Assembly: GCF_044324785.1 (NCBI RefSeq)
Contig: NZ_CP172127.1
Length of the DNA: 64,000 bases
DNA from: Escherichia coli
GTDB taxonomy: Bacteria; Pseudomonadota; Gammaproteobacteria; Enterobacterales; Enterobacteriaceae
Reading direction: 5' to 3' (one strand)
Position 1 is the stretch's first letter; every line of letters begins with the position of its first letter. This document shows positions 590 to 9,494 of the stretch, piece after piece. The notes below the pieces were generated by a model, which ran no database searches, had not been told where the DNA came from, and saw only the letters and a program-made list of their open reading frames with translations. The position numbers were made by a program, and so were the translations under genes.

Positions 590-624
590 TATAAACGAAA
601 ACGCCAGCCGTATTCAGGCTGGCG
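590..624 (-). terminator. Putative rho-independent terminator (hairpin CGCCAGCC-N7-GGCTGGCG followed by T-run on minus strand)
   Basis: Inverted repeat 602-624 read directly; minus-strand transcript continues TTTTCGTTT. Lies between the 65-aa ORF and the downstream partial gene. Confidence 0.4.
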
Positions 625-653
625 TCAGTGGAATGAAGTCTGGTGAGTAAGAC

Positions 654-851
654 TCACCTGTTCTGTTGCAGAAGCTGCTGTTGGCGCAGGGTACGGATAT
701 CTTCCCTGGCCTGTTCAATGCAGGGCAGCAGTGCTGCTGAATCCGTTTTATCCTCATCGTTGTCGAAGATAATCCCTGATTCGCAGTCAATATTGTCCTG
801 CAGCCACGCAATCAGAATATCCAGCGCCGTTTCTGTGGTTAATGATTTCAT
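654..851 (-). CDS. Small hypothetical protein (65 aa) in CP4-like module
   Basis: ORF track; acidic small protein MKSLTTETALDILIAWLQDN...; tightly packed with neighbouring island genes on the same strand. Confidence 0.45.
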   Translation of the reverse strand: MKSLTTETALDILIAWLQDNIDCESGIIFDNDEDKTDSAALLPCIEQAREDIRTLRQQQLLQQNR

Positions 852-867
852 GTTGTGAATTTACGGG

Positions 868-1356
868 TTACCAGTCGAAAGTGGGGAACCCCGGCAGACA
901 TTCTGCGCCGGCGTCCAGATGAATGAGACTGACGCCATAACGCCGGGTGAGAGTGACGACCAGACGACGGAACGTTCTTGACAGGCCCAGGCGTTTAAGC
1001 CGCAGAACCGGGTACGACCATGCATCGGTACGTAACAGATAGCCGCTGCCTGTAAAATGAATCCATTCTGTTTCGCCGTCGTCATTAGTCTGGTGTGACA
1101 GCGAGTACAGCCAGGCGTTGTCCGTTTCCGTGATATGTGCGGTACTGCAACGTATGCCGGTAAGGGTTGTTAACGGTGGTGGTGTACTGGTTGACTGCTG
1201 GTCGGATTTATCGACCACGCGGAGTGAATAACCGTTTTCAGAGACCTTGTTAATCAGTTCAGCGAGATTAACACCATCGACGTCAACGACAATGCGCCCC
1301 ATGTTCAGCGCCTGCATGTTAATGCTGTCGGCTTCCGGCGTCAGGGAAAGGTTCAT
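868..1356 (-). CDS. Hypothetical protein immediately downstream of cbtA (YeeW position)
   Basis: ORF track (162 aa); start overlaps cbtA stop by 4 nt (ATGA), suggesting translational coupling. Confidence 0.5.
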
Positions 1357-1736
1357 TGTTTCGCCTCCTCCGGATGCTTGCCCAGGGTAATGTTATTTAC
1401 CATTCTGTAATTGTCCCGGGTCATCAGGCCGGTCGCCCTGCGAGCCCGGAGAATATCAATGCTGTTGATTAACTGAGACGACGGGGCTCCTGCGCTGAAT
1501 CCCGGCTGGTCAGTTCGTACCAGCACGTATTTTTCAACGAGAAAGTTCACCGCGTCACACAGTGAAATCCCTGCCTCAATATGCTGCTCAATCACACGTT
1601 CATCAGCGAACGGTGTGTCATTCAACGTAAGGCCATAGTGCTGGTCCAGCAGTCGGGTGAGCAGTGTCTGCCAGATTTCAACCGGAGACGGGCAGCGCGA
1701 TGCCGCCCGTACGTGTGTGTCGGGTAATGTTTTCAT
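1353..1736 (-). CDS. cbtA: CbtA/YeeV-family toxin (type IV toxin-antitoxin, cytoskeleton-targeting)
   Basis: Product from internal ATG at 1734-1736 reads [56 protein letters not shown]..., recognised as YeeV/CbtA family. The track ORF has an upstream extension that is probably not translated. Confidence 0.85.
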
Positions 1737-1812
1737 ACTGAAGGTTTTCCTGATATGCAGAGATGAAAAATGGAAAAGTGGCGTGGTGAAAGCACCAGGC
1801 CGGAGCAGAAGG

Positions 1813-2193
1813 CTATTCCGGAGGGTTACTTTCCGTTTCGGTCGCAGGATAAACAGCCAGATAAACGTAACCACAGGAGCCGAGGGTGTCGGCATCGCAG
1901 GTCAGCCCTTTCGCATACAGCGTGACGGTATGCTGATGCCGGGGATTCAGTTCACCGCTGGTGAGCATGAGTTCCAGTTGTTTCATCAGCAGTGGAAAAG
2001 CCTGGTCCAGATGGTATGCATCCGCATTGCTGAACCGGCCTCTGATACCGGCGCGGTCTGCAAGGTAATGCAACCGGTTACCCTCCTGCACCAGACGTGC
2101 CCCGAAACAGGGCGTCACGATGCAGGGCAGCCCCCACCAGGGGCGGTCTTTGTTGTCGTCGGGAAGCGTTGTCCCGGGGAGTGTGTCTGACAC
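1813..2193 (-). CDS. cbeA: CbeA/YeeU-family antitoxin
   Basis: Product [52 protein letters not shown]... matches YeeU family; likely GTG start at 2191-2193 with GAGGA RBS 9 nt upstream. Confidence 0.85.
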
Positions 2194-2203
2194 GATAAAA
2201 TCC

Positions 2204-2887
2204 TCACAGAAAATCGGTGAATGATAGTTTAACGATGACGGGGCAGCCGGCGCGCAGACCGGCTTCGGTGAAGGTATATTCGTTGATGAGAAGGGCCTCA
2301 TCCACAGCGGCGTCTGAGGTCAGCCAGTCGTACTCGTTTTCCAGTTGACGGTACAACCAGAAGGCCAGGTCGCGCAGGGCTTCGCTGACTGCGGCTTCCG
2401 CATCGGTTGTCATAGCCTGACCAGTCGGACTGTTCCGGGTGACGGTGATATCCATGCAGTACGGATGGCAGTAACGTCCCCGGTGGTGGATTTCAGCCTG
2501 CAGTTGCCAGAAGTTACGCTTCTGCACCGCCTGCAGGGCATCCGCGATACGATGAAGCTCACGGTCCTGCGGGGCATACACCCCGACTCTCCTGGCTGTT
2601 GCTGACTGCCAGTGCCAGCGTCCTTCAAAACAGGCTCCGTCCCCCTGGCTGCAGAATCCGCTGAACCAGATGCACGGCTCTTCCATAAACCTGCCGTTGC
2701 TGAGCCGGATAACACGCTGGCGGAGGTCAATCCCGAAAATGCCACAGACCTCCCTGAAGTCCCCATACACGTTTTCATACCAGTTGCTGTCAGCATGATG
2801 CTGACGGTACCAGTCGCGGGCTTTTTCCTGTGCGGTGGAGGATAGCTCATTCAGTGTATACACAGTGGTGGTGATAATTCTGCTCAT
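2204..2887 (-). CDS. Hypothetical protein (227 aa) between YeeT-like gene and antitoxin
   Basis: ORF track; Trp/acidic-rich product MSRIITTTVYTLNELSSTAQEKARDWYRQHHADSNWYENVYGDF...; AAGGG RBS; no family recognised. Confidence 0.5.
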   Translation of the reverse strand: MSRIITTTVYTLNELSSTAQEKARDWYRQHHADSNWYENVYGDFREVCGIFGIDLRQRVIRLSNGRFMEEPCIWFSGFCSQGDGACFEGRWHWQSATARRVGVYAPQDRELHRIADALQAVQKRNFWQLQAEIHHRGRYCHPYCMDITVTRNSPTGQAMTTDAEAAVSEALRDLAFWLYRQLENEYDWLTSDAAVDEALLINEYTFTEAGLRAGCPVIVKLSFTDFL

Positions 2888-2905
2888 CAGAGTGCCCTTA
2901 CTGAC

Positions 2906-3127
2906 TCAGTTCAGAGTGACGTTCATCAGCCGGACATACGGGCCAAAACTGTCCTTACGGCGTTCAGCAAACACGGCCAGCACACCGGGAATATCCTGCA
3001 CTTCACGACCGGTATACGCCTCAGCACTGCCGTGCCAGCGGTATTTGCCGGTACAGAAAGGAAAAAGACGGGATGCCGGATGTTGTTGGTGAATACGCAT
3101 GGCTTCACCACGGGTGATGATTTTCAT
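2906..3127 (-). CDS. yeeT: YeeT/YkfH/YpjJ-family protein (DUF987)
   Basis: 73-aa product MKIITRGEAMRIHQQHPASRLFPFCTGKYRWHGSAEAYTGREVQDIPGVLAVFAERRKDSFGPYVRLMNVTLN recognised. Confidence 0.85.
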   Translation of the reverse strand: MKIITRGEAMRIHQQHPASRLFPFCTGKYRWHGSAEAYTGREVQDIPGVLAVFAERRKDSFGPYVRLMNVTLN

Positions 3128-3189
3128 AGTGTGATACCTCTGAAGACAGAAGATAAAAGTGCAAACAAGCGTGATGTGGTTGTGACGGG

Positions 3190-3666
3190 TTAAAGCAGAC
3201 CATGTTCGGCAAAGGAGAAAACCTGGTTGCCACCGACTATCAGATGGTCCGGCACCCGGATATCCACCAGGCCCAGTGCCTGTACCAGACGTTCCGTGAT
3301 AAGGCGGTCTGCCTTGCTGGGTGTGACTTCACCGGACGGGTGATTGTGCGCCAGCACCACGGCAGCGGCATTGTGGTACAGGGCGCGTTTAATCACTTCC
3401 CGGGGATGGACTTCCGTGCGGTTGATGGTGCCGGTGAAGAGGGTTTCACCGGCAATCAGCTGATTCTGGTTGTTCAGATACAGCACCCGGAATTCTTCAC
3501 GCTCCAGTCCCGCCATGTTCAGAATCAGCCATTCCCGTGCCGCACGGGTGGAGGTGAAGGCCACGCCGGGTTCATGAAGATGGCGGTCCAGAGTTTTCAG
3601 GGCCCGCAGAATGAGACTGCGCTCGCCGGGCGTCATCTCTCCGGGCAGAAAGGAAAGCTGCTGCAT
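3190..3666 (-). CDS. yeeS: RadC-like JAB-domain protein (YeeS/YkfG/YfjY family)
   Basis: Product MQQLSFLPGEMTPGERSLILRAL... with HNHPSG JAMM-type motif; GGAGG RBS favours ATG at 3664-3666 over the ATG at 3681. Confidence 0.85.
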   Translation of the reverse strand: MQQLSFLPGEMTPGERSLILRALKTLDRHLHEPGVAFTSTRAAREWLILNMAGLEREEFRVLYLNNQNQLIAGETLFTGTINRTEVHPREVIKRALYHNAAAVVLAHNHPSGEVTPSKADRLITERLVQALGLVDIRVPDHLIVGGNQVFSFAEHGLL

Positions 3667-3681
3667 TGTCCCTGCCTCCAT

Positions 3682-4167
3682 TCAGTCGATGATGCGCATA
3701 ATGGCGCTGCATTCCGGATGCTGCAGGGCGTAATCCCGCAGCCGGTAATAATGGACCGTCATGGCATAACACTCCGTACGACAGGCGTGATGACTGTACG
3801 TCATCAGACAGGCAGCAATGCCGGCAGCTTCCGGACTCATTTCAGCGCGGTTACCGTTCATGGCATTGAACAGTACCCATGTTTCGTCATCATCGTCATC
3901 CGGTTCGGGTGCCATAAATGCCCCGCCGTTGTTCAGGGTGTACAGATTCCAGATACCACCGCAGTAGTCTTCACACAGACGGTCCATCCAGCCGAAGACA
4001 CGGGGCTCCAGGGCCACCCACTGTGGAATGAGGCCAAAGTGCTGCGGCCAGAAGCTGATGCGCTGTTCATCAGGGACTATGGTGGCAACCAGCTGAGGCT
4101 GGTCATTCCCTGATGCAGCGGTTACGGAAACAGAAGGAGTGGTGGAATTATGCAAGACGGTTGTCAT
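3682..4167 (-). CDS. Antirestriction protein (KlcA/ArdB-like, YfjX family)
   Basis: 161-aa product with acidic DDDDDE stretch and C-terminal YRLRDYALQHPECSAIMRIID typical of CP4-type antirestriction proteins; AAGGA RBS. Confidence 0.75.
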   Translation of the reverse strand: MTTVLHNSTTPSVSVTAASGNDQPQLVATIVPDEQRISFWPQHFGLIPQWVALEPRVFGWMDRLCEDYCGGIWNLYTLNNGGAFMAPEPDDDDDETWVLFNAMNGNRAEMSPEAAGIAACLMTYSHHACRTECYAMTVHYYRLRDYALQHPECSAIMRIID

Positions 4168-4258
4168 GAGATTATTCCTTATAAAAAGTAAATGAATGGA
4201 AGAAATCCCGGGGGAAGGGACAGACGTGAGTCAGAACTGCGCTTTCAGGGAAACGGCA

Positions 4259-5077
4259 TCAGCGCATACTCTCCAGCAGCGTTTCAGCCATCACCCACAA
4301 TGCGCGGTTGAGCTTAATGTCGGTGTCGATGCTGTGAATGGCACGGGTATGGATACGTTTTCCTCTGGCACTGCGACCGGAAATCCCGCCTTTCAGCATA
4401 TTCTCCTGAATGGTCTGATAAGCACTCCACAGGTCCTTACCGTAATCCTCCCGGCGTCGTGGCGTCAGAATGTCGGCGGTGGTGACGGGCCGATGTTCGT
4501 CACCATAACGGTAAGTCAGTGCCGCCTGTGCCAGCGCCTGGCGTGCCGGTGGCGGCAGAATCAGCGACTGCATGGCATCACGCTTTTCCTCAATCCGGTC
4601 AAAAACCCCCACCACCTCGTAAGCCCCTTCAATAACTTTCTCCACCACATTTCCCCGGTGCGGAACACGCACTTCCCCCAGAGACTGACCACAGACGCAT
4701 CCGTTCTGACAGACGAACCTGAAGTAACCCGGCAGCATCTGGTAGCTGGAGGTACCGTCATGGGAGTTGAGCAGAATGATTTCAGGGACATGTTCTCCGT
4801 TTATCTCTCCGGCCCGCCGCAGACGCAGCATATGTTTTGTGTATCCCCGGCGGCCCGGGTCGCGCACACGGGTCTGGCAGGCGAAGAATGGCTGAAAGCC
4901 TTCCCGCTGCAGGCTTTCCAGTACGGTGATGGTGGGAATGTACGCATATCGTTTACTGCGGGAAGTATGCCGGTCTTCACCGAAAATACTGGGAACATAG
5001 TGCATCAGTTCTTCGTGTGTCAGCGGACGGTCACGGCGTATCTGGTTCGTATAACCAAAACGACTGGCTAGTCGCAT
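4259..5077 (-). CDS. DUF932-like protein (YfjQ/YafZ family) of CP4-like elements
   Basis: 272-aa ORF with strong AAGGAG RBS; family assignment from recalled similarity. Confidence 0.65.
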   Translation of the reverse strand: MRLASRFGYTNQIRRDRPLTHEELMHYVPSIFGEDRHTSRSKRYAYIPTITVLESLQREGFQPFFACQTRVRDPGRRGYTKHMLRLRRAGEINGEHVPEIILLNSHDGTSSYQMLPGYFRFVCQNGCVCGQSLGEVRVPHRGNVVEKVIEGAYEVVGVFDRIEEKRDAMQSLILPPPARQALAQAALTYRYGDEHRPVTTADILTPRRREDYGKDLWSAYQTIQENMLKGGISGRSARGKRIHTRAIHSIDTDIKLNRALWVMAETLLESMR

Positions 5078-5350
5078 AATTTGCTCCTTATGAATGAGTT
5101 AGCGGTATAAATGAAAAAGCCGCGTCTCCCGGAGAAGACACGGCCTGACAGATGAAATGAATGACGTTTATTGTCTGAGAAGCCCTTCACTGGCGAGCTG
5201 CGTATTTTTATGGAAGGAGATCACCCAATAACCCCATCGGGATCGGGTAATAACCGGCCAGACTGTGATCGATTCAGATGCCATTTGGCAGCAAAAGAGC
5301 CTTCGGCAATAAACGTGATGTACAACCCGGCATATCTGTTACTCCCTGAA

Positions 5351-5403: not shown

Positions 5404-8250
5404 TCAGAAAGTCACATTCAGCGTGGCCTGACCGTTATAGCCTTCGGCGCTGCTGCCGCTGACGCTGTGGGCATAACCGGCCTGAACGCCCAGGGTGATA
5501 TTTTCCCGGACACGGGCTTCCAGTCCGGCCTGCAGGTCCAGTGACGTGCCATTCTGGGACGGTGAGAACGTCATGTTACTGCCGGCGGCGGCTGTCCCCA
5601 TGCTCATGTCACCCCGGGAACTGAAGGTGCGGATAACAGAAGGCTGTACCCACCAGTTCACCGGCAGTTCACGCACACGGTGTTTTGCACTGTCGCGCAG
5701 GGTGTCACGGGATGAGGTGCCTTCACCAAAGCTCATATCGTTGTGGCTGCCCAGACGGAAGCCGGCACGCATATGTTGTGCACTGCCATGCCCGAACTTC
5801 ACATAACCGGCGTTATCCTGGCCGTCATCCAGGGAAAGTCCCTGCCAGGTGTACTGCAGTTGTGGTTCCAGCATCAGGTTGTCAGTGATACTGAAGGGCA
5901 GACCGGTTTCCAGTGAGCCCAGCCAGCCCCAGCCCCGGGCGCGGAAGTCGTTATTGTCCGATGACGCTTTCATGCTGTGGCGGGTTCCCTGTGCCATAAT
6001 GTCAGCCCACAGGCCGGAGGACGTGTGTACCAGATTCAGGTATCCGCCCAGGCTGCCGGCATCATCCCGGACCGTGCCGGCGCGGGAGCCGTCATCATCC
6101 TTAACATCAACGGAAGAATGGCCAGCAGCACTATATACCCCCGCGGTCACAGACATACCGGCAACCTCTGTTCTCAGCAGGTCACTCTCCAGACGGACGA
6201 AGCCATAGCTGCCGCTGCTTTCCGGCGTGGCCCCACGGGCAATACCGCCGTTGTTATCGTGACCGAGATGACCGCCCTGAATGCTGAGACGGACGCTGTT
6301 ATTTTCACCGTTTACACCGGTCTGATGGCTGCGGGAGCCTGCCAGAATCCGGTCATAGTCCATTGCCTGTGTCAGCATGGAGGCATACAGGGGGACTTCA
6401 GCACGATAAGCATTTTCACTGCGCAGGTACCAGTCTTCATCGCTGTCACGGTTCAGGGTGTAGTTAAAGGCACCGGCCTGAAGCGGGCGACTCAGGGCAA
6501 ACGCACCTTCTTCTGTGGTGGCACCATTCTGTGCATCCACAACCCGGATACCCTGTCCGGAAGTTGCCACCCCGAGGTTACTGTTTCCGACATTTGTGAA
6601 CGCAAGCCAGGTTTTGCCGGTTGCCTGACCACCATTAATCACCAGCTGGTCAGAGGCATTGCTGCCATCAAGGCGAACACGCATATTGATGGTGCCACCC
6701 TGACCGGTGAGGTTACTGGTGGTCAGTTTATGGAACGTTACCGGGGCGTCGCCTTTTGCAACAGCACGGCTCAGGACGGCATCCTGTGTCGTCTGATTAT
6801 CAAAGCGAATCTCCCCTGCGTTAACAATATCGCCGGTACTGACCACATCACCATTCAGTACCATGCTGGCGCCTTTACTGAGCTGTGTTCTGCCACTCAG
6901 ACTTCCCCCGGCAGCCAGCGTCAGTGTTCCACGATGTCCGACAGTGGTGTTGCCAGCCTGTCCCCCGGCATTAACCGTAAAGCTGCCGCCATTTTCCAGC
7001 AGCAGGCCGCTGGCCTGACCGGATATGCCATCAATACTGAACTTACCGCTGGCATTGGTCCCCTCAACAGTGGCACCACTGTCTGCAATCAGGGCACCAC
7101 CGGATGTCATGGTGACACCTGTCGCCTTACCACCGGCAGACACTGCCAGGGTACCGCCGTCATCCACCCGTGTTTTCTGCGCTGAATGACCCTCCAGTAC
7201 ATCCAGACGACCGCCGGACTCCAGAACAACACCGTCAGCCTTACCGTTTTCCACCGCGAAATTGCCCAGACGGTTGCTGCCGGTGACGGTTGCCGCCGTA
7301 CTGGTGACCAGTGCGCCTCCCTGCTTCAGGGTGACATTCGTGGCTGTACCACCGGCGTTCACCTGCAGTTTGCCTTTCTGGTTAACGGTGGTGAAATCCG
7401 CCAGACCACCTTCCTTGATAATCTGCCAGCCGTCACTGTTCACAACAGTGTCAGACGTTGTACCGCCGTTGTGTACATACTGGTTACCGCCATTCAGCGT
7501 GGTATCCAGTGCGTGGCCATGTACCGTCTGGTCGCCGCCGGCATAAACCACAGTGGTATTTGCTGTTCCTTCAACAGTCACAATCTGACGACCATTTTTA
7601 TTGATGGTGGTACGTACGGCATTTCCGCGAACAAACTGCCCGGTATCACCATTTTCTGCATCCGGTCCTCCTTCTGCGCCGGTATTCACAACGGTGTCTG
7701 TTGCCACTGCGCCGGGTTTGACGACCTGCCAGCCCTTATCATTAATGACGGTTCCTGTGGCTATCGCACCTTCATGCATCCACTGCTCGCCACCATTCAG
7801 CGTGGTGTTCAGTGCCAGTCCCTTCAGGCTTTGTCCGCCTCCTTCATTGATTATTGTGTCTGTAGCCTTTCCCCCGGCACCTACAAACTGGAGCCCGCCG
7901 CTGCTGATGGTGGTATTACTGGCTGTGCCGCCATCCTGTACCCATTGCCCGCCGGTATTGGCCTCGTTATCCGTCCCATACTCCAGCCCGGTACTGATGG
8001 TCATTCCGTTGGTCGTACCGAAGACAATCTGGTTGTCATGATTTGTCAGTGTTCCGCCGTTCACGGTTTCTCCCGCCTCTACAACCGTGTCAGCAGCCAG
8101 TGCCGGGACTGGCGTGACAGCAGCAAGAGACAGCGCAACCGCCACACCGGCGCGTTTTCCCCGTGAGCGGGCCAGTTCGGAAGCCACCACCAGGGTGCCC
8201 GTAATGTGATTCCATACCAGCCTGTAGCTGGTGTTCAGATGTCGTTTCAT
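5404..8250 (-). CDS. flu: Antigen 43 (Ag43) self-associating autotransporter adhesin
   Basis: Product from ATG at 8248-8250 reads MKRHLNTSYRLVWNHITGTLVVASELARSRGKRAGVAVALSLAAV... (Ag43 signal and passenger); repetitive beta-helix passenger and C-terminal beta-barrel ending ...ATLNVTF; AAGGA RBS. Confidence 0.9.
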   Translation of the reverse strand: MKRHLNTSYRLVWNHITGTLVVASELARSRGKRAGVAVALSLAAVTPVPALAADTVVEAGETVNGGTLTNHDNQIVFGTTNGMTISTGLEYGTDNEANTGGQWVQDGGTASNTTISSGGLQFVGAGGKATDTIINEGGGQSLKGLALNTTLNGGEQWMHEGAIATGTVINDKGWQVVKPGAVATDTVVNTGAEGGPDAENGDTGQFVRGNAVRTTINKNGRQIVTVEGTANTTVVYAGGDQTVHGHALDTTLNGGNQYVHNGGTTSDTVVNSDGWQIIKEGGLADFTTVNQKGKLQVNAGGTATNVTLKQGGALVTSTAATVTGSNRLGNFAVENGKADGVVLESGGRLDVLEGHSAQKTRVDDGGTLAVSAGGKATGVTMTSGGALIADSGATVEGTNASGKFSIDGISGQASGLLLENGGSFTVNAGGQAGNTTVGHRGTLTLAAGGSLSGRTQLSKGASMVLNGDVVSTGDIVNAGEIRFDNQTTQDAVLSRAVAKGDAPVTFHKLTTSNLTGQGGTINMRVRLDGSNASDQLVINGGQATGKTWLAFTNVGNSNLGVATSGQGIRVVDAQNGATTEEGAFALSRPLQAGAFNYTLNRDSDEDWYLRSENAYRAEVPLYASMLTQAMDYDRILAGSRSHQTGVNGENNSVRLSIQGGHLGHDNNGGIARGATPESSGSYGFVRLESDLLRTEVAGMSVTAGVYSAAGHSSVDVKDDDGSRAGTVRDDAGSLGGYLNLVHTSSGLWADIMAQGTRHSMKASSDNNDFRARGWGWLGSLETGLPFSITDNLMLEPQLQYTWQGLSLDDGQDNAGYVKFGHGSAQHMRAGFRLGSHNDMSFGEGTSSRDTLRDSAKHRVRELPVNWWVQPSVIRTFSSRGDMSMGTAAAGSNMTFSPSQNGTSLDLQAGLEARVRENITLGVQAGYAHSVSGSSAEGYNGQATLNVTF

Positions 8251-8459
8251 CAGCTTTTCCTTACAGAGGGTGAATAAAAAAGCCGGTACCCACAAATGTG
8301 GATACCGGCAGGTACAAAACAGCATGGTCAGATAAAGTGGTTTTTCCCGGACATAAATGCTTCCCCTCTCTCATCCGCCAGAGAAGTATCAGTCCGTTGT
8401 GTGCAATTCCGTTCTGCATGATGAAGAGATTCAGCTGCCTTTTCGCAGACCATTAACCA

Positions 8460-8510
8460 CCATAAACGATCGATGACAACGATCGATACCTGTTTTATCG
8501 ATCGTTTTAT
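8460..8510 (-). promoter_or_regulatory. agn43 phase-variation switch: three GATC (Dam) sites in the OxyR-binding leader region
   Basis: GATC at 8468, 8481 and 8500 within AAACGATCGATGACAACGATCGATACCTGTTTTATCGATCG, about 220-250 nt upstream of the flu start. The same yeeP-flu interval may also hold an IsrC-like sRNA (not verified). Confidence 0.7.
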
Positions 8511-8621
8511 TCTATTAACAGCAAGGCAGTCACGCAAGAGAAAGAGGTGGGTATGAGGTGTTTGTATCATGTTTTCAGTTGGTTAACGCAATGTAATCAG
8601 GCATTTCCCCTGGCAGAATGT

Positions 8622-9494
8622 TCAGAAGAAAATCCAGTTCCATACAGCGCGGGCAACAGAGACCACCGTGTCACGGACGACACGCAGAACCGTACGAGCC
8701 ACAGAGGCAACACAGACGCTCTCCGCCGTGTCAAATATCCGGTCCACCGCACCGGTAAACTGTTCACGGGCCTGCCCCCGGACAGATTCCGTGCACAGCT
8801 CGTCCTGCAGGCGGGTCATCAGGGGACTGGCGGCATGGTCGGGAAGTGCTGTCATGAGCGCACTGACCAGCGTATCCAGTTCCCAGCCGGTGCGGGCCGA
8901 TACGGCCACAACCGGATGTACGGGCCGGAACAGACGGAATACCGCCTCCGTTTTTTCGCGAATGTTCTGTGCCTGTGCGGGAGAAGGCTGAATACCGGCC
9001 ATATCCCATTCATGGCAGGGCTCCGTTTTATCGGCCTGCGTCACCACAAACAGCACCTGCTGATGTCCCCGGTGCAGGATGTGTCGCCAGAAATACTCAT
9101 CCACAGACAGGGCACGGTCATCGGCTTTAATCAGCCACAGTACCAGGTCAAGTTCAGGCAGAATGTCACGGTACAGGGCTTCATACTCTGCATCCCTGTC
9201 CCGGCTCTCGCCCACCCCGGGCAGGTCAGTGATAACCATGCTGTGACCGTGGCCACTCAGACGGAAGCGCCGCACTTCCCGGGTGCCGGCGTGAACATCA
9301 CTGACCGGGGTGACCTCCCCCTGAAACAGTGCATTACAGAGTGAGGATTTACCGGCCCCGCTTTTCCCCATAATGCCAATCACGGGTTCGTGACTGGTGA
9401 GTTTACGCAGATGTTCCAGGATGTGACGGGAAAGTGAGTAAGGCAGGGAAGAAAGTGGTTTTTCAATTGCCTCAATGGCATCAGACGGATTCAT
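8622..9494 (-). CDS. yeeP: YeeP/YkfA/YfjP-family GTPase
   Basis: P-loop GIMGKSGAGKSS and GTPase motifs (DLPG, TQADK); ATG at 9492-9494 has a GGGA RBS, whereas the track's GTG start at 9533 has none. Confidence 0.8.
   Translation of the reverse strand: MNPSDAIEAIEKPLSSLPYSLSRHILEHLRKLTSHEPVIGIMGKSGAGKSSLCNALFQGEVTPVSDVHAGTREVRRFRLSGHGHSMVITDLPGVGESRDRDAEYEALYRDILPELDLVLWLIKADDRALSVDEYFWRHILHRGHQQVLFVVTQADKTEPCHEWDMAGIQPSPAQAQNIREKTEAVFRLFRPVHPVVAVSARTGWELDTLVSALMTALPDHAASPLMTRLQDELCTESVRGQAREQFTGAVDRIFDTAESVCVASVARTVLRVVRDTVVSVARAVWNWIFF

What the first reader, a model, noticed from the sequence alone, without database searches (positions are those of the whole stretch)
2204..2887. Extra 227-aa gene between YeeT-like gene and the CbeA antitoxin
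In K-12 CP4-type modules as recalled, yeeT is followed almost directly by the antitoxin gene. Here a tightly packed, RBS-equipped 227-aa ORF with no recognised family is interposed and ends just before the antitoxin's RBS. It may be an additional toxin-antitoxin-associated or anti-defence component co-transcribed with cbeA/cbtA.
Basis: partly seen in the sequence, partly recalled or inferred. Interest (0 to 1): 0.45.

Follow-up and report, generated by a model that had tools for sequence, protein, structure and literature searches.

The report
Uncharacterised DUF8835 gene in CP4-like island
The "extra" gene between yeeT and the CbeA antitoxin is real and conserved, but it is a catalogued gene of unknown function (DUF8835) found on islands, conjugative plasmids and phages, and K-12 simply lost it by deletion; nothing ties it to the toxin-antitoxin pair.

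Summary
A 227-aa ORF (2204-2887, minus strand) lies between yeeT/DUF987 and cbeA. It has its own Shine-Dalgarno sequence, and its stop codon sits inside the cbeA Shine-Dalgarno.

It is not new. It is 100% identical to RefSeq WP_000086769.1. About 36% of complete E. coli genomes carry a near-full-length copy. [quoted passage not shown]

The family core is 214 aa. The window allele has a TGA-to-TGC change at codon 215 that adds 13 residues. K-12 CP4-44 keeps a 16-codon in-frame deletion scar of the gene.

The family is large: 3591 clusters at 50% identity. The AlphaFold model is very confident (pLDDT 95) and has no counterpart in the PDB.

Context argues against a toxin-antitoxin role. Of the 80 closest loci from other species, 1 has CbeA/CbtA. 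Most instead carry ParB-N, RadC, ArdC, a methylase-helicase and a primase. A Thioclava plasmid has DUF932-RadC-x-DUF8835 followed by AbiE instead of CbtA/CbeA. Phage copies lie among small early-type genes.

Best reading: a facultative establishment or anti-defence accessory protein of mobile elements. The biochemical mechanism is unknown. Interest is low to moderate.

The parts
2204..2887 (-). DUF8835-family gene, 227 codons plus stop. This is the finding.
   Evidence: ORF list. 100% identical to WP_000086769.1 of E. coli SMS-3-5. Homologues. dN/dS 0.32 and 0.155.
2246..2887 (-). Conserved 214-aa family core: a single compact alpha/beta domain carrying the invariant GFxSQGDGA loop (residues 77-85).
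   Evidence: Alignments A1, A2 and A3. AlphaFold model with pLDDT 95.1 and pTM 0.87.
2204..2245 (-). 13-codon read-through tail (CPVIVKLSFTDFL) plus the TGA stop. It arose from a TGA-to-TGC change at codon 215. In 214-aa alleles this stretch is the intergenic spacer.
   Evidence: Comparison with allele L016 and alignment A1. Model pLDDT falls to 70-79 here.
2895..2899 (-). Shine-Dalgarno-like AAGGG, 7 nt upstream of the ATG.
   Evidence: Read directly from the sequence.
2906..3127 (-). yeeT-like DUF987 gene, immediately upstream.
   Evidence: RefSeq annotation of the collinear SMS-3-5 locus. PHROG 14887.
3190..3681 (-). RadC-like JAB-domain gene (yeeS/ykfG/lfgB type). RadC - small ORF - DUF8835 recurs in alphaproteobacterial elements.
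   Evidence: NCBIfam TIGR00608 at E = 1.7e-43. A RadC homologue lies about 1 kb upstream of DUF8835 in 39 of 80 loci and in the Thioclava plasmid.
3682..4167 (-). KlcA/ArdB-type antirestriction gene (yfjX/lfgA type).
   Evidence: PHROG 10132 'anti-restriction protein' at E = 1.4e-63. RefSeq annotation.
4259..5077 (-). DUF932 gene (yafZ/yfjQ type), first gene of the putative operon.
   Evidence: RefSeq annotation. PHROG 12094. Terminator-like site upstream at 5146-5117.
1813..2193 (-). cbeA/yeeU-family type IV antitoxin gene with a GTG start. Its GAGGA Shine-Dalgarno contains the stop codon of the DUF8835 gene.
   Evidence: RefSeq annotation. 92% DNA identity to the K-12 cbeA region. Sequence read.
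1353..1736 (-). cbtA-family toxin gene.
   Evidence: RefSeq annotation.
654..1356 (-). DUF5983 (868-1356) and DUF957 (654-851) genes, the end of the block.
   Evidence: RefSeq annotation.
600..626 (-). Intrinsic-terminator-like hairpin (10 pairs, 7 GC) with a T-rich tail. Likely end of the DUF932-to-DUF957 transcription unit.
   Evidence: Consensus scan. A pattern match only.

Best explanation
Shown. The ORF is a real gene under purifying selection. It encodes a member of the large DUF8835 family: a standalone protein with a 214-aa core, usually acidic, whose predicted fold has no solved relative. The window allele carries a 13-residue tail because its stop codon mutated from TGA to TGC. Translation therefore ends inside the Shine-Dalgarno of cbeA. 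The gene is an optional component of CP4-like island modules. K-12 CP4-44 lost it by an in-frame deletion that left a 16-codon scar. Many E. coli genomes retain only a 152-nt 3' remnant, and a few alleles are fused to cbeA. Outside enterobacteria the family sits in conserved blocks of conjugative plasmids and ICEs. The typical order there is ParB-N, RadC, a 138-aa ORF, DUF8835, a methylase/strawberry-notch helicase, a Toprim primase and DUF2493, with ArdC nearby. In lytic phages it sits among small early-type genes. It almost never accompanies CbtA/CbeA, and the toxin-antitoxin pair downstream of it is exchangeable (AbiE in Thioclava).

Inferred. It is an establishment or counter-defence accessory protein, made together with the antirestriction (KlcA-type), RadC and DUF932 proteins when the element enters or awakens in a cell. 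It probably acts through the invariant Ser-Gln-Gly-Asp-Gly loop, together with the conserved Tyr139 and the largely conserved His141. The mode of action would be binding and neutralising a host factor or a small nucleotide-like ligand, or a still-unknown catalytic activity on one. The CbtA/CbeA pair is independent neighbouring cargo. In this allele the read-through tail may couple its translation to that of cbeA.
For: Real gene:
- Homologues; dN/dS.
- The exact protein occurs on at least 1000 contigs.
- 3505 of 5426 complete E. coli genomes match and 1941 have at least 80% coverage.

Family and fold:
- DUF8835 label.
- AlphaFold pLDDT 95.
- AFDB50 returns only the family itself.
- Invariant Q81-G82-D83 and conserved Y139 down to 26% identity phage homologues.
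- Median pI 4.8 and net charge -15 across 76 members.

Loss and variation in E. coli:
- K-12 scar MSRIIATTGPFLADFL*.
- 152-nt remnant.
- Stop-codon change.
- Fusion alleles.

Context:
- Counts in 80 species-level loci: 138-aa ORF 75, helicase 73, ParB-N 64, Toprim 54, ArdC 47, RadC 39, CbeA/CbtA 1.
- The upstream ORF overlaps the start by 8 nt in 68 of 75 loci.
- Thioclava p5 has DUF932-RadC-DUF6878-DUF8835-AbiEi/AbiEii.
- Haematobacter conjugative plasmid.
- 113 plasmids carry it, 41 of them conjugative.
- 55 phages carry it, including Caulobacter giant phages where it lies in the terminal repeats.

Literature:
- Iyer et al. 2017 (PMC5512222) list RadC, ArdC-N, ParB, methylase-helicase dyads, primases and CbtA as domains of the 'polyvalent proteins' that conjugative elements and phages deploy early in conflicts.
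- YfjX, CbeA, YfjZ and YagB of K-12 are translocated by the F type IV secretion system (PMC11288057).
Against: - There is no experimental datum for any member of the family. No paper mentions DUF8835 or the RefSeq accessions.
- Guilt by association is weak. Many neighbouring genes are themselves uncharacterised.
- The 80 loci analysed are the best-scoring ones and represent essentially one alphaproteobacterial element lineage.
- A relaxase was not found within 10 kb in those loci (0 of 80), so a 'leading region' position is not shown.
- The E. coli copy is less acidic than the family median (net charge -7).
- Frequent deletion in E. coli shows the gene is dispensable for a resident island.
- The mechanism (binder or enzyme) is not resolved. 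I could not inspect the model coordinates to test whether the conserved residues cluster.
Confidence: 0.5

Rival explanations
1. Third component of the CbtA/CbeA type IV toxin-antitoxin system. In this reading it modulates CbtA toxicity or CbeA activity as a co-antitoxin, chaperone or regulator, as the old database name suggests.
For: - It is adjacent to cbeA in E. coli, and in this allele its stop codon lies inside the cbeA Shine-Dalgarno.
- In Klebsiella michiganensis and Salmonella diarizonae the gene lies between cbeA and cbtA.
- In-frame DUF8835-CbeA fusion alleles exist, for example P0017 of 343 aa, seen on several contigs.
Against: - CbeA/CbtA is present in only 1 of the 80 closest non-E. 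coli loci.
- The toxin-antitoxin pair is replaced by AbiE in Thioclava.
- The pair is absent from the phage contexts inspected.
- K-12 modules lack the gene, and the CbtA/CbeA work is on the CP4-44 pair (abstracts).
- There is no homology to CbeA (PF06154) or RelB families.
- The database name is the generic RelB description.
- The fusion model shows no confident packing: pTM 0.58. This is a weak negative because the CbeA alignment was shallow.
Confidence: 0.08
2. Partner of the RadC-like JAB protein in DNA or nucleotide processing during establishment of the incoming element. For example, it could be a substrate-recognition or regulatory subunit of a RadC - small ORF - DUF8835 cassette, rather than an inhibitor of host immunity.
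For: - RadC lies about 1 kb upstream of DUF8835 on the same strand in 39 of 80 loci.
- RadC is also upstream in Thioclava and in every enterobacterial module seen.
- Tight translational coupling to the ORF in between: an 8-nt overlap in 68 of 75 loci.
- Iyer et al. propose that RadC domains process nucleic acids or nucleotides.
Against: - Half of the alphaproteobacterial loci have no detectable RadC within 10 kb at E < 1e-5.
- No RadC is annotated near the phage copies inspected.
- The intervening small ORF is not conserved. DUF987, DUF6878 and the 138-aa protein are unrelated to one another.
Confidence: 0.2
3. In E. coli it is a decaying passenger gene with no current function. It persists only because CP4-like modules spread and recombine.
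For: - Deletion scars and remnants are common: the K-12 scar and the 152-nt remnant in many genomes.
- About 1560 genomes have only partial matches.
- Allele L016 carries Y139D at a conserved position.
- The stop codon is lost in the window allele.
Against: - dN/dS is 0.32 between E. coli alleles and 0.155 against Klebsiella.
- Intact copies are present in 1941 complete genomes.
- The exact protein occurs on at least 1000 contigs.
- All family-invariant residues are retained in the window copy.
Confidence: 0.12

Closest known systems
[quoted passage not shown]
   Same: Full-length homology: about 60% identity to alphaproteobacterial members and 26-37% to phage members. The GFxSQGDGA loop, Tyr139 and the N- and C-terminal motifs are shared. 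The window protein is identical to RefSeq WP_000086769.1.
   Different: The window allele has a 13-residue C-terminal read-through tail that the 214-aa core family lacks. The family has no known function, so membership explains nothing mechanistically.
Antirestriction and establishment genes of conjugative elements (KlcA/ArdB, ArdA, ArdC)
   Same: The gene neighbourhoods are the same: it is next to a KlcA-type gene in E. coli and in blocks with ArdC in alphaproteobacteria. The proteins are small, standalone and usually acidic, and they occur on plasmids, ICEs, islands and phages.
   Different: There is no sequence or fold similarity to any of them. No activity against restriction or any other defence has been shown.
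CbeA/YeeU/YfjZ type IV antitoxins (PF06154)
   Same: It is adjacent in enterobacterial modules and occasionally fused in frame. Some databases label it as the YeeV-YeeU antitoxin.
   Different: There is no homology, and the protein is twice the size with a different predicted fold. Its distribution is almost entirely independent of CbtA/CbeA.
Domains of 'polyvalent proteins' (Iyer et al. 2017)
   Same: It co-occurs with the same repertoire (RadC, ParB, ArdC-N, methylase-helicase, Toprim, CbtA) in the same kinds of elements.
   Different: It is found as a standalone protein; nearly all of the 150 top representatives are about 200-250 aa. It matches none of the Pfam families, so none of the LPD domains deposited there. 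Whether it ever occurs inside a polyvalent protein was not established.

Membership tests
DUF8835 (uncharacterised family) | Full-length sequence homology to proteins carrying that label | tested here: met
   An allele with 95.3% DNA identity (H35, WP_000086755.1) is labelled DUF8835 in RefSeq. Full-length family matches reach E = 4.8e-85. The Pfam model itself is not in the library available here, so there was no direct HMM hit.
DUF8835 (uncharacterised family) | Conserved core motifs: the GFxSQGDGA loop, Tyr139, and the terminal (F/L)xELS and NEYxF..G motifs | tested here: met
   All are present in the window protein. Q81, G82, D83, A85 and G210 are invariant in alignment A3, which includes 26% identity phage members, and G84 and Tyr139 are conserved in at least 90%.
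CbeA/YeeU/YfjZ antitoxin family (PF06154) | Match to the PF06154 profile / YeeU fold | tested here: not met
   No Pfam hit even at E <= 10. PF06154 appears only in the C-terminal half of fusion alleles.
[quoted passage not shown] | Homology to RelB/antitoxin domains, and pairing with a RelE-type toxin | tested here: not met
   No Pfam, NCBIfam or PDB sequence match. The label is used for relB in the literature. No RelE-like neighbour is present.
Third component of the CbtA/CbeA toxin-antitoxin system | Consistent co-occurrence with CbtA/CbeA across taxa | tested here: not met
   1 of 80 loci. AbiE replaces CbtA/CbeA in Thioclava. K-12 modules lack the gene.
Third component of the CbtA/CbeA toxin-antitoxin system | Physical or functional interaction with CbtA or CbeA | tested here: inconclusive
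   AlphaFold model of the natural fusion P0017: pTM 0.58, linker pLDDT below 50, CbeA part pLDDT 54-73. The CbeA alignment was shallow and no PAE output was available.
Known antirestriction families (ArdA, KlcA/ArdB PF03230, ArdC) | Sequence or fold homology | tested here: not met
Anti-defence proteins (functional class) | Encoded on mobile elements in early or establishment regions next to known counter-defence genes | tested here: met
   It is adjacent to a KlcA-type gene in the window. ArdC is present in 47 of 80 loci. Phage copies lie among small early-type ORFs or in terminal repeats. A leading-region position relative to oriT is not shown.
Anti-defence proteins (functional class) | Demonstrated inhibition of a defence system | not testable with these tools
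   This requires experiments. No paper was found.
Anti-phage defence systems (PADLOC) | Match to a defence-protein model | tested here: not met
   No PADLOC hit for this protein or its module neighbours.

The most novel reading that the evidence does not exclude
DUF8835 is a new family of counter-defence or host-takeover proteins with a previously unseen fold. It would be shared by conjugative plasmids, ICEs, mobilisable islands and lytic phages of Proteobacteria. It would neutralise a widespread host immune or DNA-surveillance function through its invariant SQGDG loop, possibly as a translocated or very early expressed effector working with the RadC-like protein.
Probability: 0.35. Interest if true: 0.65.

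Novelty: already known. Interest (0 to 1): 0.3.

Why it matters
As a finding in this window it is ordinary. It is a common, annotated island gene, and K-12 is the odd one out.

Its value is as a lead. The family has thousands of sequence clusters, a very confident predicted structure with no solved relative, and no Pfam-A, NCBIfam or PADLOC match in the libraries used. It keeps company with antirestriction, RadC, ParB, ArdC and methylase-helicase genes on plasmids, ICEs, islands and phages. That is the profile of recently discovered anti-defence families, so it is a reasonable candidate for a targeted screen.

[quoted passage not shown] That name could cause this gene to be counted as an antitoxin in toxin-antitoxin surveys of E. 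coli.

Tried and rejected
Searches that found nothing:
- Pfam-A on the protein, on 76 family members, on the 374-aa member P0142 and on the alphaproteobacterial 138-aa neighbour.
- NCBIfam and PADLOC.
- PDB sequence and profile searches: only E > 1 noise.

Fold searches:
- AFDB50 returned only the family itself.

Homology tests between neighbouring genes:
- I tested whether the gene upstream of DUF8835 is a conserved partner. DUF987, DUF6878 and the 138-aa protein are mutually unrelated, and the 138-aa protein is also unrelated to CbeA (BLASTP and hhalign).

Structure test:
- The AlphaFold model of the natural DUF8835-CbeA fusion showed no confident inter-domain packing.

Literature:
- The seven papers that use the old label do not establish anything about this family. 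The one checked in detail uses it for relB; a second lists only an accession, so the family cannot be determined.
- Nothing was found for DUF8835 or the WP accessions.
- The Erwinia CbtA/CbeA paper does not mention the gene.

Rejected readings:
- An antisense or chance ORF, because of conservation and dN/dS.
- An overlap with a 162-aa cbeA ORF, which is an artefact of the longest-ORF rule; the true cbeA start is the GTG at 2193.

Full report
**What is there**

The minus strand of window 600-5100 carries a tightly packed gene block:

| Gene | Coordinates |
|---|---|
| DUF932 | 4259-5077 |
| KlcA/ArdB-type antirestriction gene | 3682-4167 |
| RadC-like JAB gene | 3190-3681 |
| yeeT/DUF987 | 2906-3127 |
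| the 227-aa ORF | 2204-2887 |
| cbeA/yeeU-family antitoxin (GTG start at 2193) | 1813-2193 |
| cbtA | 1353-1736 |
| DUF5983 | 868-1356 |
| DUF957 | 654-851 |

- The ORF starts 18 nt after the yeeT stop. An AAGGG Shine-Dalgarno lies 7 nt upstream of its ATG.
- Its TGA lies inside the GAGGA Shine-Dalgarno of cbeA, 10 nt before the cbeA GTG.
- On this strand the only convincing terminator-like hairpins lie upstream of DUF932 (5146-5117) and after DUF957 (626-600). Co-transcription of the block is therefore likely, but it is inferred.
- The 162-aa ORF 1813-2301 listed is just cbeA extended to the furthest upstream start codon.

- K-12 CP4-44 has 73 nt between yeeT and cbeA.
- Aligning the window to K-12 shows flanks that are 92-93% identical on both sides, and a clean absence of window 2218-2864.
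- What remains in K-12 is ATG AGC AGA ATT ATC GCC ACT ACC GGA CCA TTC TTA GCC GAT TTT CTG TAA. This encodes MSRIIATTGPFLADFL*, that is, the first 8 codons and the last few codons of the gene joined in frame.
- CP4-57 and CP4-6 have no trace of the gene.

**How common it is in E. coli**

- Among 5426 complete E. coli genomes, 3505 have some match and 1941 have a copy covering at least 80% of the gene. The median is two places per genome.
- Many genomes keep only the last 152 nt, directly abutting DUF987.
- The exact window protein is RefSeq WP_000086769.1, annotated 'hypothetical protein' in E. coli SMS-3-5 among many others. It is recorded on at least 1000 contigs.

**The 227-aa length is allele-specific**

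- The family core is 214 aa and ends ...TEAGLRAG*.
- In the window, codon 215 is TGC where other alleles have TGA. The downstream nucleotides are otherwise almost identical, differing only at the cbeA start (GTG here, ATG in L016). The 13 extra residues (CPVIVKLSFTDFL) are therefore a translation of the former spacer.
- Other alleles carry a small deletion that fuses the gene in frame to cbeA, giving 342-343 aa with PF06154 in the C-terminal part.

**It is a real gene**

- dN/dS is 0.32 against a 95% identical E. coli allele. It is 0.155 against the Klebsiella homologue, with dS saturated.
- Homologues number 2726 in the word-indexed search and 3591 clusters at 50% identity in the exhaustive search, of which 1900 score below 1e-10.
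- A single peptide pattern found relatives in 545 stretches of the one-genome-per-species collection.

**What family it is**

- There is no hit in Pfam-A (protein, or any of 76 members at E <= 0.001), NCBIfam, PADLOC or PDB sequences.
- PHROG 5162, of unknown function, matches over the full length at E = 9.5e-37.
- Recent RefSeq records-95% identical alleles 'DUF8835 domain-containing'. A Pfam DUF therefore now exists that is newer than the library I could search. No paper mentions it.
[quoted passage not shown] That is the generic description of RelB. Nothing supports homology to RelB or to CbeA.

**Structure and conserved residues**

- With a 76-sequence alignment, AlphaFold gives a very confident single-domain alpha/beta model: pLDDT 95.1, pTM 0.87.
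- Foldseek against the PDB finds nothing better than E = 0.18.
- AFDB50 returns only the family itself.
- I aligned members down to 26% identity: phages Av-05, RaK2, Acinetobacter CP14, Lana and CcrColossus, plus an Acinetobacter plasmid. The invariant residues are L15, A23, G52, Q81-G82-D83, A85 and G210. G77, F78, G84, Y139, Y179, L182 and F206 are at least 90% conserved.
- The GFxSQGDGA stretch is a loop between two strands in the model. It is the obvious candidate for a functional site.
- The family is typically acidic, with median pI 4.8 and net charge -15. The window copy is less so, at pI 5.5 and net charge -7.

**Context outside E. coli**

Enterobacteria:
- In Klebsiella michiganensis and Salmonella diarizonae the gene lies between cbeA and cbtA.
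- A second E. coli clade, 64% identical, has it between DUF987 and cbeA, as in the window.
- The E. coli type, the Klebsiella/Citrobacter/Salmonella type and the alphaproteobacterial type are roughly equidistant at about 60% identity.

Alphaproteobacteria. I screened the 80 best species-level loci (79 from Alphaproteobacteria or unclassified proteobacterial MAGs, plus one Salmonella) with a panel of neighbour proteins:

| Neighbour | Loci of 80 | Position |
|---|---|---|
| 138-aa ORF | 75 | immediately upstream |
| methylase/strawberry-notch helicase | 73 | immediately downstream |
| ParB-N protein | 64 | upstream |
| Toprim primase | 54 | downstream |
| ArdC | 47 | upstream |
| DUF2493 | 44 | downstream |
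| RadC | 39 | about 1 kb upstream |
| CbeA/CbtA | 1 | Salmonella locus only |

- The 138-aa ORF overlaps the DUF8835 start by 8 nt in 68 of 75 loci.
- It is unrelated to DUF987, DUF6878 or CbeA.

Plasmids:
- Thioclava plasmid p5 has DUF932-RadC-DUF6878-DUF8835, followed by an AbiEi/AbiEii pair. This is the same core as in E. coli with a different toxin-antitoxin pair.
- 113 plasmids carry the gene, 41 of them typed as conjugative.

Phages:
- 55 phage genomes carry it. It lies among arrays of small hypothetical genes.
- In CcrColossus it is near the genome end.
- In the related Caulobacter giant phages it lies within the terminal repeats.

**Interpretation**

- The gene travels with the DUF932, antirestriction and RadC part of the module. 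The toxin-antitoxin pair next to it is interchangeable cargo.
- Its neighbours (RadC, ArdC-N, ParB, methylase-helicase dyads, Toprim primases and even CbtA) are the domains that Iyer et al. 2017 catalogued in 'polyvalent proteins'. Conjugative elements and phages deploy these early in conflicts with the host (PMC5512222).
- Several K-12 homologues of the module's proteins (YfjX, CbeA, YfjZ, YagB) are translocated through the F type IV secretion system (PMC11288057).
- I therefore favour an establishment or counter-defence role. This rests on association only, and the biochemical mechanism (binder or enzyme, and the target) is unknown.

**Tests of the toxin-antitoxin hypothesis were negative or inconclusive**

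- There is no co-occurrence outside Enterobacteriaceae.
- The gene is absent from the K-12 CP4-44 module, the source of the characterised CbtA/CbeA pair (abstracts).
- An AlphaFold model of the natural DUF8835-CbeA fusion has a disordered linker and no confident packing: pTM 0.58. This is a weak negative because the CbeA alignment was shallow and no PAE output was available.

**Setting**

- The window is collinear with an island in E. coli SMS-3-5 inserted next to a tRNA-Ser gene between infA and clpA, with 99.98% identity over the first 11 kb.
- The window lacks about 9 kb of IS elements and glycosyltransferase genes that are present there.

**Verdict**

- The gene and its family are already catalogued, so nothing here is new in kind.
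- The useful residue is a well-defined, large, structurally orphan family that is a reasonable candidate for anti-defence screening, plus a correction of a misleading database name.

Noticed in passing
L002 (K-12 MG1655 CP4-44) 9052-9102, between yeeT and cbeA: The 73-nt yeeT-cbeA spacer of K-12 contains an intact 16-codon mini-ORF, MSRIIATTGPFLADFL*. It is the in-frame deletion scar of the DUF8835 gene and keeps its start codon and Shine-Dalgarno. Whether it is translated is unknown.
   Followed up: partly
P0017 and about 15 similar clusters (E. coli, 342-343 aa): These are natural in-frame fusions of DUF8835 to the CbeA antitoxin through translation of the former Shine-Dalgarno region (...RAGLPEDFIVSD...). 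They are seen on several contigs, including a complete genome. The AlphaFold model shows no confident packing of the two halves.
   Followed up: partly
L003 7592-8008, L020 8592-9008 and 73 other alphaproteobacterial loci: A conserved 138-aa ORF (MADYFTHFSCLLDVGTPENAARALDLY...) has no Pfam match. Its stop overlaps the DUF8835 start by 8 nt in 68 of 75 loci, which suggests a translationally coupled partner. It is unrelated to DUF987, DUF6878 and CbeA.
   Followed up: partly
L021 (Acinetobacter indicus plasmid pB18-3) 7004-7982: A distant DUF8835 homologue (27% identity) sits divergently next to a plasmid-borne type I-F CRISPR-Cas operon (cas3f). It is followed 190 nt downstream by a 62-aa helix-turn-helix gene, an arrangement reminiscent of acr-aca operons. 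This is a single case.
   Followed up: no
L007-L009 (Klebsiella michiganensis) 7610-8996; L089 (Salmonella diarizonae): In these species the DUF8835 gene lies between the cbeA antitoxin and the cbtA toxin genes, splitting the pair. In E. coli L106, a different 76-aa gene occupies the cbeA-cbtA gap. The slots between genes of this module seem to accept insertions freely.
   Followed up: partly
window 11152/11153 versus L105 (SMS-3-5) 11153-20137: Relative to SMS-3-5, the window's island lacks about 9 kb: IS1, a glycosyltransferase, a pyruvyl transferase and several IS fragments. The breakpoint falls inside or next to the type I R-M subunit M gene. From window 32379 onwards, identity to SMS-3-5 falls to 98.6% (clpA side).
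   Followed up: no
L016 (E. coli TUM11356) 2540-3184: This 214-aa allele carries Y139D and S80G at conserved positions of the family, and its neighbouring DUF5983 gene is frameshifted. The module may be decaying.
   Followed up: no
RefSeq annotation seen: The product name is misspelt in RefSeq as 'DUF8835 domain-containing pootine'. [quoted passage not shown]
   Followed up: no
L013 (K-12 CP4-57) 3920-4869: K-12 yfjX and yfjY are now annotated lfgA (putative antirestriction protein) and lfgB (prophage protease). This follows a report that the RadC-like LfgB cleaves the MqsA antitoxin (PMC10846083). It may be relevant to what the RadC homologue at window 3190-3681 does.
   Followed up: no
window 1353-1356: The cbtA stop and the DUF5983 start overlap by 4 nt (1353-1356). 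This suggests translational coupling of the toxin gene with the downstream DUF5983 gene.
   Followed up: no
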